Part shown: positions 48,065-50,670 of the stretch, piece after piece | How positions within the stretch are numbered: the first letter of the stretch is position 1 | Layout: each line of letters starts with the position of its first letter | Translations under genes and position numbers: made by a program | Origin: the human T2T-CHM13v2.0 reference genome, Homo sapiens | DNA length: 64,000 nucleotides | Assembly: GCA_009914755.4 (NCBI GenBank) | Contig: CP068257.2 | Location: forward strand, 20,576,001-20,640,000 | Direction of reading: 5' to 3' | Notes under the pieces: generated by a model | Seen by the model: the letters and a program-made list of their open reading frames with translations, nothing else | The model's database searches: none | Told to the model about the DNA's origin: nothing

Positions 48065-48260
48065 GAAAAATAAAGCACAAAAGTTAGCTTTTTCATGGAG
48101 GATATGCTGTAACTCTGCTGTCAGTCATTTTAAAAATTGTAACAACTGGAAGAGATGTCAACTGATCAAATTTCCAAGAGCTCATACCTTACATAGGGAA
48201 CATAGTCATATTCACAGTTAATTTTAATAGTTTCAGCATCTTTGACAGCAGTGGAATGCT
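48065..48260. repeat. Source copy of a locally duplicated ~195-bp segment (see findings). Partial copies at 49670-49745 and 50507-50600
   Basis: 'aaagcacaaaagttagctttttcatggaggatatgctgtaactctgctgtcagtcattttaaaaattgtaa' vs 'aaagcacaaaagttagctatttcatggaagaaatatctctcctgtcagtcattttaaaaattgta' (50525-50600). 'cttacatagggaacatagtcatattcacagttaattttaatagtttcagcatctttgacagcag' vs 'acataggcaacatagtcatattcgcagttaattttaatagtttgagtatctttgagtgaag' (49685-49747). Confidence 0.8.
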
Positions 48261-49252
48261 ATCCACTTAGTTCGCAGATATAACACCATAATCCATTAAA
48301 ATAAATTGCCTGTAAAAGGAGCTAGTGTTCTTAAAGTTATGTAAGTGTTGAGAAGGAAGAAGGAAAAGGAGAAAGAAATTGTTGCAAAAAATGTACCTTA
48401 TTCATTTCTTTATTGAGATCCTCTTTTGCAAAATATAAATAGATAAAAGAAAAAATAAAAATTTTCCTGTTCACAGAATAAAATAATGCACAGAATTATC
48501 TTACATCTGTACTATGAAGTGGGCCATTAGAGACCTTCTAAAGTCTAATACAAGTAATGCAAAAGCACAAAAGGAGATTAACTTTGCAACTTGACAAATA
48601 GATGCAAGAATAAGAAAAAAATACTTAGGACAATTAACACAAAATACACATCATTACAGACATTTAGTCAATCATCATCATCATCATGACCTTCCTGCAC
48701 CTTCCATCTATATTTTTATATCTACTTGGTTCCCTCATTTTGTTTTTGTAACTGATACAGTCATTTTAAAGAAGAAGTTAATTTATTCAATTGAGTCAGT
48801 GTTTGACTGAACTCACTGATTGTTTCAGAAAATGTTCTGTAAATACACACTGCCCAAATGCTGCTGCTTTGACTTATTGTCTCAGAGACTCCCATACATA
48901 TTTAAGTGGTCAAAAGAAGCATGTAGTAAATTTTTTATTTCTGACAGTGGCAGCTGCTGCTGCTGTTGCTGCTTCTTGAGTCTACTTAGTTTGTCAGCCA
49001 TTTTCTTCTGTTATATTTCTTTTCCAATTCTGTGGTATTTCTTCCTTATGTGTGTTTATCTCATATGTCAGGATTTTGCTTTTATTGTCATTGCTATGTC
49101 AATACAGAATTTTGAAAAAATATTTTTATTCAGTATAATTGACATATTTTGACTTTGAAGTTTAGAATAACTAAAATATTAATGAATTTCATTTAATGAT
49201 TTATTAAATTAATATATTTAATGTGACATGTTTATATAGTTATAGTACATCT

Positions 49253-49565
49253 TTTTTTTTTTTTTTTTTTTTTTTTTGAGACAGAGTCTCCCTCTGTCCC
49301 CCAGGCTGGAGTGCAGTGGCGTGATCTTGGCTCACTGCAACCTCCGCCTCCCAGGTTCAAGTGATTCTCCTGCCTTAGCCTCCCGAGTAGCTGGGACTAA
49401 AGGTGCATGCCACCACGCCTGGCTAAGTTTTGTATTTTTAGTAGACACGGGGCTTCACCATGTTGGCCAGGATGGTCTTGATCCTTGATCTCTTGACCTT
49501 GTGATCTGCCTGCCTCGGCCTCCCAATGTGCTGGGATTGCAGGCGTGAGCCACCGCATCCAGCCA
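49253..49565 (-). mobile_element. Alu (AluS-like), full length, minus orientation. ~14-bp TSD 'ttatagtacatctt' at 49239-49252 and 49567-49580
   Basis: Poly-T(25) then 'gagacagagtctccctctgtcccccaggctggagtgcagtggcgtgatcttggctcactgcaacctccgcctcccaggttcaagtgattctcctgcc...ggattgcaggcgtgagccaccgcatccagcc'. Flanking duplicates read directly. Confidence 0.92.
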
Positions 49566-50164
49566 TTATAGTACATCTTATAACAATTTCTGTTCTAGGA
49601 TAAATTTTATGCATTTAAACTTTATCACAAAAATAATATGGAACTCATCTGACCCTAAAAGGAGTGACATAGGCAACATTACATTACATAGGCAACATAG
49701 TCATATTCGCAGTTAATTTTAATAGTTTGAGTATCTTTGAGTGAAGAGATAAGTCATCCTTACTTGTGAGAGCAATGTTGCAAACATCAAACTAGGCTCA
49801 CACTATTTTTTATGAAAGGAGATTCCATATGGGAATCAATGAAAGAGTTGAAAATAAGATTTAATTTAATTAAAAGAAACAGAAACAATACATTCTCATA
49901 CAGTCCAAAGAAGGTAAAAATAAGCATTTGTAGTTCATGTTGATAATTGACAAACTTTAAAAGTATATTCTTGACTCTTATTAGTTTTAGGTTCAATCAG
50001 GTCCCAGTTAATATTAAAGTTTTACTTAAAGATATATCAACCATATAATGCTGTTATACTTATTGTTGCCATAAATGGCCTCTCTTTTATTCAGAGACCA
50101 CACTACAATTTTGGAACTGGAGTTCAGACCCAGGGTGCTCCATGTCTCCTCTAATATTCAAAAT

Positions 50165-50420
50165 AATTTTGTAGTGGATTAAATCATTGAATTCACCGCA
50201 GATGACAGATAGGTGATAGATAGATGAAAGATAGATAGATAGATAGATGATAGATATTATTTTGTAGTGGATTAAATCTTTGAATTCATGGTAGATGATA
50301 GCTAGCTAGCTAGCTAGATAGATAGATAGATATTATTTTGTAGTGGATAAAATCATTGAATTCACAGTAGACGATAGATGATTGATAGGTAGAGAGATAG
50401 ATAGATAGATGATAGATATT
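50165..50420. repeat. Three tandem copies of a ~75-85-bp unit: 'attttgtagtggattaaatcattgaattcac(c/a)g(c/t)agatga(c/t)ag...' plus a (GATA)n/(CTAG)n core. A GATA-containing minisatellite
   Basis: Direct reading of units starting ~50165, ~50258 and ~50333. Each ends in a GATA-type run ('gatagatagatgaaagatagatagatagatagatgatagata', 'gctagctagctagctagatagatagatagata', 'gataggtagagagatagatagatagatgatagata'). Confidence 0.85.
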
Positions 50421-50438
50421 TAAAGCATAATTATATAT

Positions 50439-50670
50439 GCTTTAAAAACTCTAACAAGAATTATATACAAAAAGATAAAACGCAAAGGGCATATAGATAT
50501 TTAAAGCATAAATATGAAGTGAAAAAAGATTCAAAGCACAAAAGTTAGCTATTTCATGGAAGAAATATCTCTCCTGTCAGTCATTTTAAAAATTGTATAT
50601 GCTTTAAATATCCATATGCCCTTTGCATTTTATCTTTTTGTATATAATTCTCGTTAGAGTTTTCAGCAAA
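50439..50670. repeat. ~72-bp inverted repeat (arms 50439-50512 and 50596-50670, ~93% identical), bracketing an ~85-bp spacer that is a duplicate of 48071-48150
   Basis: Arm 1 'tgctttaaaaactctaacaagaattatatacaaaaagataaaacgcaaagggcatatagatatttaaagcataa'. Arm 2 'tatgctttaaatatccatatgccctttgcattttatctttttgtatataattctcgttagagttttcagca' is its reverse complement with a few mismatches. Confidence 0.85.

What the first reader, a model, noticed from the sequence alone, without database searches (positions are those of the whole stretch)
48065..50670. Local rearrangement: dispersed duplicates of a ~195-bp segment, a 3x ~80-bp GATA-minisatellite, and a ~72-bp inverted repeat bracketing one duplicate
Segment 48065-48260 reappears in two pieces in swapped order. 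Its right half is at 49685-49747. Its left half is at 50525-50600, about 780 bp further on. The left-half copy sits exactly between two ~72-bp inverted arms (50439-50512 and 50596-50670, ~93% identical), a fold-back or MITE-like configuration. Immediately upstream (50165-50420) is a three-copy tandem array of an ~80-bp unit ending in (GATA)n/(CTAG)n. An AluS with a clean TSD (49253-49565) lies within the interval. None of these pieces matches a repeat family I recognise. The pattern could be a low-copy unclassified repeat or MITE, or the scar of a replication-based (FoSTeS/MMBIR-type) rearrangement or fold-back duplication. A (GATA)n-cored minisatellite next to an inverted repeat is also a plausible polymorphic or unstable site
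Basis: seen in the sequence. Interest (0 to 1): 0.5.

Follow-up and report, generated by a model that had tools for sequence, protein, structure and literature searches.

The report
Old local copy-and-fold-back DNA scars
A 2.6-kb stretch of AT-rich, non-coding primate DNA carries real short local duplications, a 66-bp inverted repeat and a three-unit GATA repeat array, best read as old neutral scars of replication or repair copying errors rather than a mobile element or anything functional.

Summary
Segment A (48056-48264) has two short, sharp-edged direct copies downstream, in swapped order: R-copy 49680-49759 (61-nt core, 91.8%) and L-copy 50512-50597 (65-nt core, 92.3%). A's middle 43 nt is not copied. 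The L-copy fills the 87-nt spacer of a 66-nt, 95.5% inverted repeat (50445-50510 / 50598-663). A three-unit nested GATA array (50163-50420) lies just upstream, and an AluS with a 14-bp TSD lies in the interval. All are far above chance (z = 17-21).

There are no further copies in the 64-kb window or in 271 kb of other primate contigs. The IR unit has no target-site duplication, so it fails a defining MITE test.

Excising the left arm restores a 14-bp mini-palindrome and a 20-nt direct repeat bracketing the L-copy. The R-copy carries a perfect 13-mer re-priming stutter. The best reading is templated insertions copied from A, followed by a 66-nt fold-back template switch seeded by a quasi-palindrome at the array edge. 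Divergence is roughly Alu-age.

No function is indicated. Genome-wide copy number, ancestral state and polymorphism could not be tested here. Ordinary; low interest.

The parts
48056..48141 (+). Segment A, left patch (L). Inferred donor of the L-copy; robust core 48072-48141.
   Evidence: Matches 50512-50597. Core 92.3% over 65 nt plus a 5-bp indel. z=17.3 against shuffles. nhmmer E=5.9e-08.
48142..48184 (+). Segment A, middle 43 nt that is not duplicated anywhere.
   Evidence: Score at chance level against 48400-51200 (z=-1.1). blastn-short finds only the self hit in the window.
48185..48264 (+). Segment A, right patch (R). Inferred donor of the R-copy; robust core 48185-48245.
   Evidence: 82.5% over 80 nt to 49680-49759. 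Core 91.8% over 61 nt. z=18.9. nhmmer E=3.5e-09.
49240..49579 (-). AluS insertion (body plus poly-T 49254-49565) with 14-bp target-site duplications at 49240-49253 and 49566-49579. Unrelated to the duplications; used as an internal clock.
   Evidence: TSD read directly. Non-CpG divergence 5.6% from AluSx, 6.6% from AluY and 13.1% from AluJo, using consensus sequences from memory. Seven other Alu copies in the window match it. Sub-threshold SRP and mir-1268 Rfam hits.
49667..49679 (+). 13-nt 'stutter': a perfect extra copy of ACATAGGCAACAT lying just outside the left edge of the R-copy. It repeats 49686-49698.
   Evidence: Perfect 13/13 at 19-nt spacing. About 0.002 such recurrences are expected in 3.7 kb. 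Segment A has the motif only once.
49680..49759 (+). R-copy: direct copy of A's right patch; core 49680-49740.
50163..50420 (+). Nested tandem array with three units (50163-50255, 50256-50331, 50332-50420). Each unit is a roughly 43-nt unique head plus a (GATA)n/(TAGC)n tail of variable length.
   Evidence: the repeat finder family D2. TRF period 76, 2.4 copies, score 256. All three head pairs are 88.4% identical, a star-like pattern. nhmmer recovers all three units.
50419..50446 (.). Small palindrome TTTAAAGCATA-ATTATA-TATGCTTTAAA (11-bp arms, 6-nt loop) at the array edge. It is the remnant of the quasi-palindrome proposed to have seeded the events.
   Evidence: Read directly and folded as a separate hairpin. 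The 11-mer and its complement occur four times in alternating orientation (50419, 50436, 50500, 50598) and nowhere else in 64 kb, against 0.09 expected per strand.
50445..50510 (+). Left arm of the 66-nt inverted repeat; inferred to be the derived, fold-back copy.
   Evidence: 95.5% complementary to 50598-50663. Excising it lengthens the adjacent palindrome from 11 to 14 bp and creates a 20-nt direct repeat around the L-copy. Only excision starting at 50443-50447 does this.
50511..50597 (+). IR spacer, which is the L-copy (50512-50597; core 50533-50597): a direct copy of A's left patch.
   Evidence: Right edge ...AAAAATTGTA|TATGC coincides with the start of the right arm.
50598..50663 (-). Right arm of the inverted repeat; inferred to be the original sequence and the template for the left arm.
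   Evidence: The three arm differences are all transitions, two of them at CpG sites. The IR folds as DNA at -66.5 kcal/mol, z=-14.3.

Best explanation
These are neutral, old scars of local template-switching errors during replication or break repair, in non-coding AT-rich primate DNA. They are roughly as old as the AluS.

Inferred order of events:
(i) A unit of 'unique head plus GATA microsatellite' was tandemly triplicated into a nested tandem array.
(ii) At the 3' edge of that array lay a 17/18-bp quasi-palindrome (ATAGATATTTAAAGCATA - ATTATA - TATGCTTTAAATATCCAT), a likely stalling site for polymerases.
(iii) A stalled or broken nascent strand copied two short patches, in direct orientation, from one donor 1.5-2.4 kb upstream (segment A, 48056-48264). 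The R patch went in at 49680, with a 13-nt re-priming stutter. The L patch went in inside the quasi-palindrome. The strand returned to the original template by pairing its end ATTGTA with ATTATA upstream of where it had left. That re-copied 14 nt and left a 20-nt direct repeat around the insert.
(iv) Later, or in the same episode, a single fold-back switch-and-return (four-point type 1-4-3-2 / 3-2-1-4) copied 66 nt of the downstream sequence in reverse complement. This made the left arm and so created the IR with the L-copy as its spacer.

Nothing indicates a function.

Shown: the repeats, their sharp edges, their significance, the missing TSD, the effect of excision and the stutter. Inferred: the direction of copying (A to copies), the order of events, the mechanism and the neutrality.
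For: Local origin:
- The repeats are real, short and sharp-edged.
- The only copies in 64 kb are these three, and there are none in 271 kb of Alu-bearing primate contigs.
- The exact cores are absent from the metagenome, genome and viral collections. The metagenome collection does hold at least 120 Alu-bearing contigs.
- Three copies within 2.5 kb would be extremely unlikely for independent insertions of a low-copy family (inference).
- About 92% identity between copies would require a young family, about 4% from its consensus. From my knowledge, the families active in primates at that time (Alu, L1PA, SVA, ERVs) do not look like this sequence.

L-copy site and the fold-back:
- Excising the left arm restores a 14-bp palindrome and a 19/20 direct repeat of 96-nt period bracketing the L-copy, and only at the true position. 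The chance of the three extra restored bases is about 0.04.
- The 11-mer pivot occurs four times in alternating orientation and nowhere else in the window.

R-copy site:
- A perfect 13-mer stutter sits at the left edge of the R-copy but not in A.

Timing:
- L and R have equal divergence (K2P 0.081 and 0.087). The IR is lower (0.048, with two of three changes at CpG). The array heads are higher (0.126). This fits the proposed order.

Literature:
- Single switch-and-return events creating inverted repeats, seeded by quasi-palindromes, are documented in human and ape genomes (PMC5453318; PMC10710096).
Against: - No outgroup or ancestral sequence was available, so the polarity and order of events are inferences from junction anatomy.
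- The divergence differences are not statistically significant (Fisher p=0.55 for all sites, p=0.10 excluding CpG).
- The two inserted patches lie 770 bp apart, whereas templated insertions from one event usually cluster at one junction.
- Microhomology at several junctions is minimal: the junction between the L-copy and the right arm is blunt.
- The 6-mer direct repeat flanking the R-copy is at chance level (40% of controls).
- A 66-nt reverse-complement tract is longer than most described short template switches (a few tens of bp; hairpin stems of 30-55 nt were the range screened for).
- Genome-wide copy number was not measured.
Confidence: 0.5

Rival explanations
1. Same class of event but opposite polarity. 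Segment A is the derived product: a single break at about 48056-48264 was patched by a polymerase that copied two downstream templates in turn. It copied the IR spacer 50512-50597 first, then 43 nt of filler, then 49680-49759. The 'swapped order' is then simply the order in which the templates were visited.
For: All templated pieces sit at one junction, as expected for a single multi-switch repair event. The L patch corresponds to the whole loop between the IR arms and stops exactly at the stem, as if copying had been limited to the single-stranded loop of an extruded hairpin. A's right edge (48264-48266) coincides with the start of an older, unrelated homology, 48267-48563 to 58868-59149 (z=6), so it is a genuine breakpoint.
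Against: It leaves the 20-nt direct repeat bracketing the L-copy unexplained. The 13-mer stutter would be an independent event at the donor rather than a product of the copying. The 43-nt filler has no template in the window. The IR would have to predate the copying although its arms are less diverged (4.5% vs 8%; not significant). The sequence left of A has no counterpart left of 58868, so A is not a simple insertion into that older repeat.
Confidence: 0.2
2. The pieces belong to a low-copy or unnamed interspersed repeat family, or are fragments that a repeat library would assign to a known L1, LTR or DNA element. In that case the cluster is a set of TE fragments rather than a local rearrangement.
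For: The window is packed with degraded repeats: Alu copies and L1-like and MaLR-like ORF fragments recognised from memory. No repeat library or whole primate genome could be searched.
Against: There are no other copies in 64 kb (blastn word 7 and nhmmer) or in 271 kb of other primate contigs. The patches are only 61-86 nt with sharp edges, and the 43 nt between them in A is never co-copied. About 92% mutual identity implies a young family, yet they resemble none of the young primate families I know. Three members within 2.5 kb is very improbable for independent insertions (inference).
Confidence: 0.15
3. Remnant of a larger tandem or segmental duplication (unit about 1-1.5 kb) that has decayed and been rearranged, leaving only the L and R islands recognisable.
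For: The copies are in direct orientation at kb-scale spacing (offsets 1495 and about 2460). The region clearly tolerates tandem duplication, as the three-unit array shows.
Against: The order L,R...R,L is not colinear. The intervening sequences (48265-49679 vs 49760-50511) share no detectable similarity while the islands are about 92% identical. Extensions beyond the cores are at chance level.
Confidence: 0.07
4. The IR unit 50445-50663 is a MITE or foldback-type non-autonomous DNA transposon that captured the L patch.
For: 66-nt terminal inverted arms on a 219-bp unit, with very stable fold-back potential.
Against: No TSD of 2-10 bp, although arms at 95% identity imply a TSD should still be legible. 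The termini (AAAACTCTAAC...) do not resemble the hAT, Tc1/mariner or piggyBac termini I know. No other copy exists in any sequence searched. From established knowledge, DNA transposons have been inactive in the anthropoid lineage for about 37 My, which sits badly with arms that differ at only one non-CpG site. The left arm also excises cleanly as an insertion into a pre-existing palindrome.
Confidence: 0.03

Closest known systems
Short-range template-switch mutations (TSMs; four-point model of Loytynoja & Goldman 2017, PMC5453318; hairpin-creating TSMs, PMC10710096)
   Same: One switch-and-return that copies nearby sequence in reverse complement and creates an inverted repeat in one step (event type 1-4-3-2 / 3-2-1-4). 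It is seeded by a pre-existing quasi-palindrome, as in the classic Ripley model. Point substitutions accumulate afterwards.
   Different: The reverse-complement tract here is 66 nt with an 87-nt spacer. That is longer than the tens of bp typical of described events and above the 30-55-nt stems screened for in the miRNA study. The ancestral state is reconstructed from the sequence itself, not from outgroups.
MMBIR/FoSTeS-type or polymerase-theta-type templated insertions at stalled forks or breaks (from my own knowledge)
   Same: Short patches copied in direct orientation from a template within a few kb. Features include more than one switch, a re-priming stutter, return by short imperfect homology (ATTGTA/ATTATA) and filler sequence of unknown origin.
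   Different: The two patches lie 770 bp apart rather than at one junction, unless the polarity is reversed. The events are tens of millions of years old and fixed, not de novo pathogenic rearrangements. Several junctions show little or no microhomology.
Nested tandem repeats and compound microsatellite-minisatellite arrays, such as the duplicated flank-plus-tetranucleotide structure of DYS389I/II (from my own knowledge)
   Same: A unit of unique flank plus tetranucleotide run repeated head to tail, with the run length varying between units.
   Different: Only three units, with short, interrupted GATA/TAGC runs. No evidence of polymorphism is available here.
MITEs / foldback elements
   Same: Long terminal inverted arms on a short (219-bp) unit.
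   Different: No TSD, no family of copies, no recognisable transposon termini; one arm behaves as an insertion into a pre-existing palindrome.
Palindromic AT-rich repeats (PATRRs) that mediate recurrent translocations (from my own knowledge)
   Same: AT-rich sequence able to form a long hairpin or cruciform (-66.5 kcal/mol as ssDNA).
   Different: PATRRs are several hundred bp long and nearly spacer-free. Here the arms are 66 nt with an 87-nt spacer, which should strongly reduce cruciform extrusion.

Membership tests
MITE / non-autonomous DNA transposon | Terminal inverted repeats | tested here: met
   66-nt arms, 95.5% complementary.
MITE / non-autonomous DNA transposon | Target-site duplication flanking the element | tested here: not met
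   No direct repeat of 2-10 bp at 50444|50445 and 50663|50664.
MITE / non-autonomous DNA transposon | Multiple dispersed copies with consistent boundaries | tested here: inconclusive
   None in the 64-kb window, in 271 kb of primate contigs, or in the viral and genome collections. No whole primate genome was searchable.
MITE / non-autonomous DNA transposon | Termini matching a known transposase superfamily | not testable with these tools
   No repeat library available. By eye, the ends AAAACTCTAAC... / ...GTTAGAGTTTT do not resemble the hAT, Tc1/mariner or piggyBac termini I recall.
Template-switch mutation (four-point model) | A tract that is the reverse complement of nearby sequence and is explained by one switch and return | tested here: met
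   The left arm 50445-50510 is the reverse complement of 50598-50663. Removing it as a pure 66-nt insertion leaves a coherent sequence.
Template-switch mutation (four-point model) | Pre-existing quasi-palindrome at the switch site (classic model) | tested here: met
   After excision there is a 14-bp perfect mini-palindrome, and a 15-nt inverted pair GATATTTAAAGCATA / TATGCTTTAAATATC.
Template-switch mutation (four-point model) | Ancestral (pre-event) state observed in an outgroup | not testable with these tools
   No orthologous primate sequence could be retrieved.
MMBIR/FoSTeS-type templated insertion | Inserted tracts templated from nearby sequence | tested here: met
   The L and R patches are about 92% identical to a donor 1.5-2.4 kb away.
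MMBIR/FoSTeS-type templated insertion | Microhomology at the switch junctions | tested here: inconclusive
   ATTGTA/ATTATA (5/6) at the L-copy return junction, and a 13-mer stutter at the R-copy. However, the junction between the L-copy and the right arm is blunt, and the GAGTGA repeat is at chance level.
Nested tandem repeat / minisatellite | Head-to-tail copies of a unit that itself contains a short tandem repeat | tested here: met
   Three units with periods 93 and 76, each ending in (GATA)n/(TAGC)n.
Nested tandem repeat / minisatellite | Copy-number polymorphism in populations | not testable with these tools
   No population or long-read data available.
Alu (SINE) | SRP-derived dimer, A-tail and target-site duplication | tested here: met
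   Two Metazoa_SRP sub-threshold hits, a 26-nt poly-T on the + strand, a 14-bp TSD and the best fit to AluS (consensus from memory).
miRNA / structured RNA gene | Match to a curated RNA family at its gathering score | tested here: not met
   The only hit on the IR is MIR6027, a plant family, at 30.5 bits against a gathering score of 95. No family reaches its gathering score anywhere in the window.
PATRR-type unstable palindrome | Near-perfect palindrome of several hundred bp with little or no spacer | tested here: not met
   Arms of 66 nt and a spacer of 87 nt.

The most novel reading that the evidence does not exclude
The 66-bp inverted repeat may be a comparatively recent, possibly hominoid-specific, unusually long single-step template-switch product; its arms differ at only one non-CpG site. 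Its spacer is a templated insertion placed at the centre of a pre-existing palindrome. If so, the locus would record palindrome-centre breakage repaired by templated synthesis and then re-palindromised by fold-back. If transcribed, it could also yield a long hairpin RNA, or it could be structurally polymorphic in living populations.
Probability: 0.1. Interest if true: 0.4.

Novelty: new member of a known kind. Interest (0 to 1): 0.15.

Why it matters
It matters little in itself. It is one more fixed, probably neutral example of how replication and repair template switching builds inverted repeats, dispersed micro-duplications and nested tandem arrays in AT-rich non-coding primate DNA.

Its modest value is as a worked example. 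The junction anatomy (a quasi-palindrome at a microsatellite edge, a bracketing direct repeat, a re-priming stutter and a clean 66-nt fold-back) lets a multi-step history be reconstructed from a single sequence. Sequences like this can also be mistaken for MITEs or unclassified repeats during annotation.

Tried and rejected
1. Exact-ORF look-ups of three window ORFs, to fetch the same locus or orthologs from public assemblies, found nothing on record.

2. Exact-core scans all returned 0 hits:
- L-core in the viral and metagenome collections.
- R-core in the viral and genome collections.
- Arm core in the viral and genome collections.
- Array unit in the viral collection.
An Alu control shows the metagenome set does hold primate DNA, at least 120 contigs. 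The L-core occurs twice in this window yet was not found, so this locus is not in that collection.

3. The window has no recognisable exons. Pfam scans of the ten longest ORFs gave nothing useful. So orthologous introns could not be fetched through a gene.

4. Extensions of homology beyond the cores are at chance level: the leftward extension of the R-copy to 49614, the leftward extension of the L-copy to 48031, and the outward extension of the IR.

5. Segment A against the reverse strand at 52862-53078 gives a colinear alignment of about 58% identity with shuffle p of about 0.01. nhmmer does not recover it at E<=1, so I dropped it.

6. The GAGTGA 6-mer direct repeat flanking the R-copy was rejected as evidence, because 40% of control window pairs share a 6-mer.

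7. A decayed tandem-duplication model was rejected: the order is not colinear and the spacers share no similarity.

8. The Rfam hit MIR6027 on the hairpin is far below threshold and is a plant family, so I treat it as generic hairpin likeness.

9. The relative dating of the IR against the L and R copies is not statistically supported.
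Full report
**What the window is.** The 64-kb window is AT-rich (about 28-46% GC per 2 kb, mostly about 32%) and CpG-depleted. 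It is full of degraded repeats and has no recognisable exon. Several Alu copies match the one inside the interval. This is non-coding primate DNA. Rfam finds no RNA family at gathering threshold anywhere in it.

**Checking the observation.**
- Segment A has two downstream direct copies in swapped order.
- The right patch 48185-48264 recurs at 49680-49759 (82.5% over 80 nt; core of 61 nt at 91.8%).
- The left patch 48056-48141 recurs at 50512-50597 (80% over 91 gapped columns; core of 65 nt at 92.3% with one 5-bp indel).
- Against first-order Markov (dinucleotide-frequency) resamples of the query the scores are z=17.3 and z=18.9.
- The 43 nt between the patches in A (48142-48184) has no copy anywhere.
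- Every attempted extension past the cores is at chance level.

So these are two short, sharp-edged patches, not one 195-bp segment split in two.

The inverted repeat is 66 nt (50445-50510 and 50598-50663), 63/66 complementary, with an 87-nt spacer and z=21.3. The L-copy fills the spacer and its right edge abuts the right arm exactly.

The array has three units (50163, 50256, 50332; it ends at about 50420). Each unit is a 43-nt head plus a variable (GATA)n/(TAGC)n tail.

The Alu (49254-49565, minus strand) has a 14-bp TSD, TTATAGTACATCTT. Among consensus sequences I wrote from memory it is closest to AluS.

**Local event or dispersed repeat?** Inside the 64 kb the pieces have no other copies, by blastn with word size 7 or by nhmmer.

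I tried to bring in outside sequence.
- Exact-ORF look-ups failed.
- Exact-core scans of the viral, metagenome and prokaryote-genome collections returned nothing.
So that collection does contain primate DNA, but its coverage is unknown and it evidently lacks this locus.
- The 271 kb of primate contigs fetched by the control contain none of the pieces.

These negatives are weak. The stronger arguments are internal.
- Three related patches within 2.5 kb are very unlikely to be independent insertions of a family too rare to appear elsewhere in 335 kb.
- The patches are only 61-86 nt with sharp edges.
- Their roughly 92% mutual identity would require a family only about 4% from its consensus. That would be contemporaneous with or younger than AluS, a period in which, to my knowledge, only Alu, L1PA, SVA and a few ERV families were active. 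None of them resembles this sequence.

I put the dispersed-repeat reading at about 0.15.

**MITE test.** The 219-bp IR unit has long inverted arms, but no target-site duplication of any length from 2 to 10 bp. With arms still 95% alike, a TSD should be legible. There are no other copies, and the termini are unlike the superfamily termini I recall. A defining feature was tested and not met, so it is not filed as a MITE.

**Junction anatomy and the proposed mechanism.** The 11-mer TTTAAAGCATA and its complement occur four times in alternating orientation (50419 +, 50436 -, 50500 +, 50598 -). They occur nowhere else in the window, against 0.09 expected per strand.

A 23-nt direct repeat (22/23) links the array edge (50412-50434) with the inner end of the left arm (50493-50515). 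A 17-nt direct repeat (16/17) links 50430-50446 with the junction between the L-copy and the right arm, 50592-50608.

Removing the left arm as a pure 66-nt insertion has two effects. It lengthens the small palindrome next to it from 11 to 14 perfect base pairs. It also turns the 17-nt repeat into a 20-nt direct repeat (19/20, ATT[A/G]TATATGCTTTAAATAT) of 96-nt period that brackets the L-copy. In a scan of 66-nt deletions at every offset, only starts at 50443-50447 did this; these are equivalent placements within an A-run. The chance of the three extra restored bases is about 0.04. Removing the right arm instead improves nothing.

Removing the 96-nt unit as well yields a simple putative ancestor, S0. 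It consists of the GATA array, then a 17/18-bp quasi-palindrome with a 6-nt loop, then the present right-arm sequence.

This suggests the following history.
1. A polymerase stalled at the quasi-palindrome.
2. The nascent strand copied A's left patch and returned by pairing its end ATTGTA with ATTATA upstream of its departure point. That re-copied 14 nt and produced the bracketing repeat.
3. A fold-back switch-and-return then copied 66 nt of downstream sequence in reverse complement.

That last step is the '1-4-3-2 / 3-2-1-4' event type of the four-point model, which creates an inverted repeat. The classic form is seeded by a quasi-palindrome (PMC5453318). Such events are known to create hairpins in one step in primate genomes (PMC10710096).

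At the R-copy, a perfect 13-mer (ACATAGGCAACAT, 49667-49679) repeats 49686-49698 just outside the edge of homology. Segment A has the motif only once. About 0.002 such recurrences are expected by chance. It looks like an abortive first round of copying followed by re-priming. A 6-mer direct repeat flanking the R-copy proved to be at chance level and was discarded.

**Timing.**
- Pairwise K2P distances are 0.126 for the array heads (all three pairs equal, star-like), 0.087 for R, 0.081 for L and 0.048 for the IR arms.
- The three IR arm differences are transitions, two of them at CpG sites.
- The Alu is about 5.6% non-CpG diverged from an AluS consensus written from memory. That is equivalent to roughly 11% between two copies.

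The point estimates give the order: array, roughly equal to the Alu, then the L and R copies, then the IR. This matches the reconstruction. The equal L and R values suggest one episode. However, none of the differences is significant (Fisher p = 0.55, 0.10 and 0.54), and inverted arms can be homogenised by conversion. The order is therefore an inference.

**Alternatives within the local reading.** The main rival reverses the polarity. In that reading segment A is a chimeric repair patch that copied the IR loop, then 43 nt of filler, then the R site. The points in its favour are:
- It places all templated tracts at one junction.
- It would explain why the L patch equals the loop and stops at the stem.
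- A's right edge coincides with the start of an older homology, 48267-48563 to 58868-59149 (z=6, about 61%). nhmmer does not recover that homology.

Against it:
- The bracketing 20-nt repeat is left unexplained.
- The stutter would have to be an independent event at the donor.
- A's left flank has no counterpart beside 58868.

I give it 0.2. A decayed larger tandem duplication is rejected: the order is not colinear and the spacers share no similarity.

**Function.** I found no evidence of function.
- The hairpin is very stable as single-stranded DNA (-66.5 kcal/mol, z=-14).
- Its only Rfam hit is a far sub-threshold match to a plant miRNA family.
- No ORF in the interval has a Pfam match.
- The GATA runs are short and interrupted, and the IR has a long spacer. 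From general knowledge both predict only modest instability.

**Verdict.** These are ordinary, old, probably neutral template-switch and tandem-duplication scars: an instance of known mutational processes. Interest is low (0.15). The main uncertainty is that genome-wide copy number and outgroup states could not be examined with the tools available. The decisive analyses are listed under next steps.

Noticed in passing
window 652-1327: About 680 bp of (TA)n-rich, very AT-rich low-complexity sequence with nested 27-, 41- and 61-bp periodicities. Long AT-dinucleotide tracts of this kind can form secondary structures and are often length-polymorphic.
   Followed up: no
window 24575-24711: A long (GGAA)34 microsatellite, 88% matches. 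In translation it appears as 'KEGR' and 'LPSF' repeats. It is probably length-polymorphic.
   Followed up: no
window 29499-29555: An (AC)28.5 dinucleotide repeat. It lies next to an ORF fragment that I recognise from memory as MaLR (THE1/MST)-type LTR sequence. Similar fragments occur near 31.9, 39.3, 51.4 and 59.5 kb and match each other at 76-83%.
   Followed up: partly
window 62763-63413: Two Alu elements head to tail, reported by TRF as a 333-bp period with 1.9 copies at 78%. Both also match the interval's Alu.
   Followed up: no
window 49477-49501: Inside the AluS there is a 7-bp unit, CTTGATC, repeated about 3.6 times. It shows up as a 7-nt insertion relative to the Alu consensus, so it is a small post-insertion slippage duplication.
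   Followed up: partly
window 48267-48563 and 58868-59149: Old, roughly 61%-identical direct homology (shuffle z=6; blastn E=7e-5) that begins exactly at the right edge of segment A. nhmmer does not recover it. It may be two copies of an ancient repeat. If so, A's right boundary is a real breakpoint.
   Followed up: partly
window 48671-48687 and 48953-48973: Short trinucleotide runs, (ATC)5.7 and (GCT)7, between segment A and the Alu. A 110-codon open frame (48820-49149) spans the second run. It has no Pfam match and no database record.
   Followed up: partly
window 2296-2906, 14122-14780, 63678-63998 (minus strand): ORF fragments that I recognise from memory as LINE-1 ORF2-like. Pfam did not confirm any of the three I tested, so the assignment rests on memory alone.
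   Followed up: partly
window 50475-50632: A sub-threshold Rfam match of the IR hairpin to MIR6027, a plant miRNA family: 30.5 bits against a gathering score of 95, E=0.0015. I regard it as generic long-hairpin likeness.
   Followed up: yes
loci L027 and L028 (contigs BNJS01000789.1, 841 kb, and BNJS01002514.1, 44 kb): The metagenome collection contains very long Alu-bearing contigs, so some 'metagenome' records are essentially host (primate) genome assemblies.
   Followed up: no
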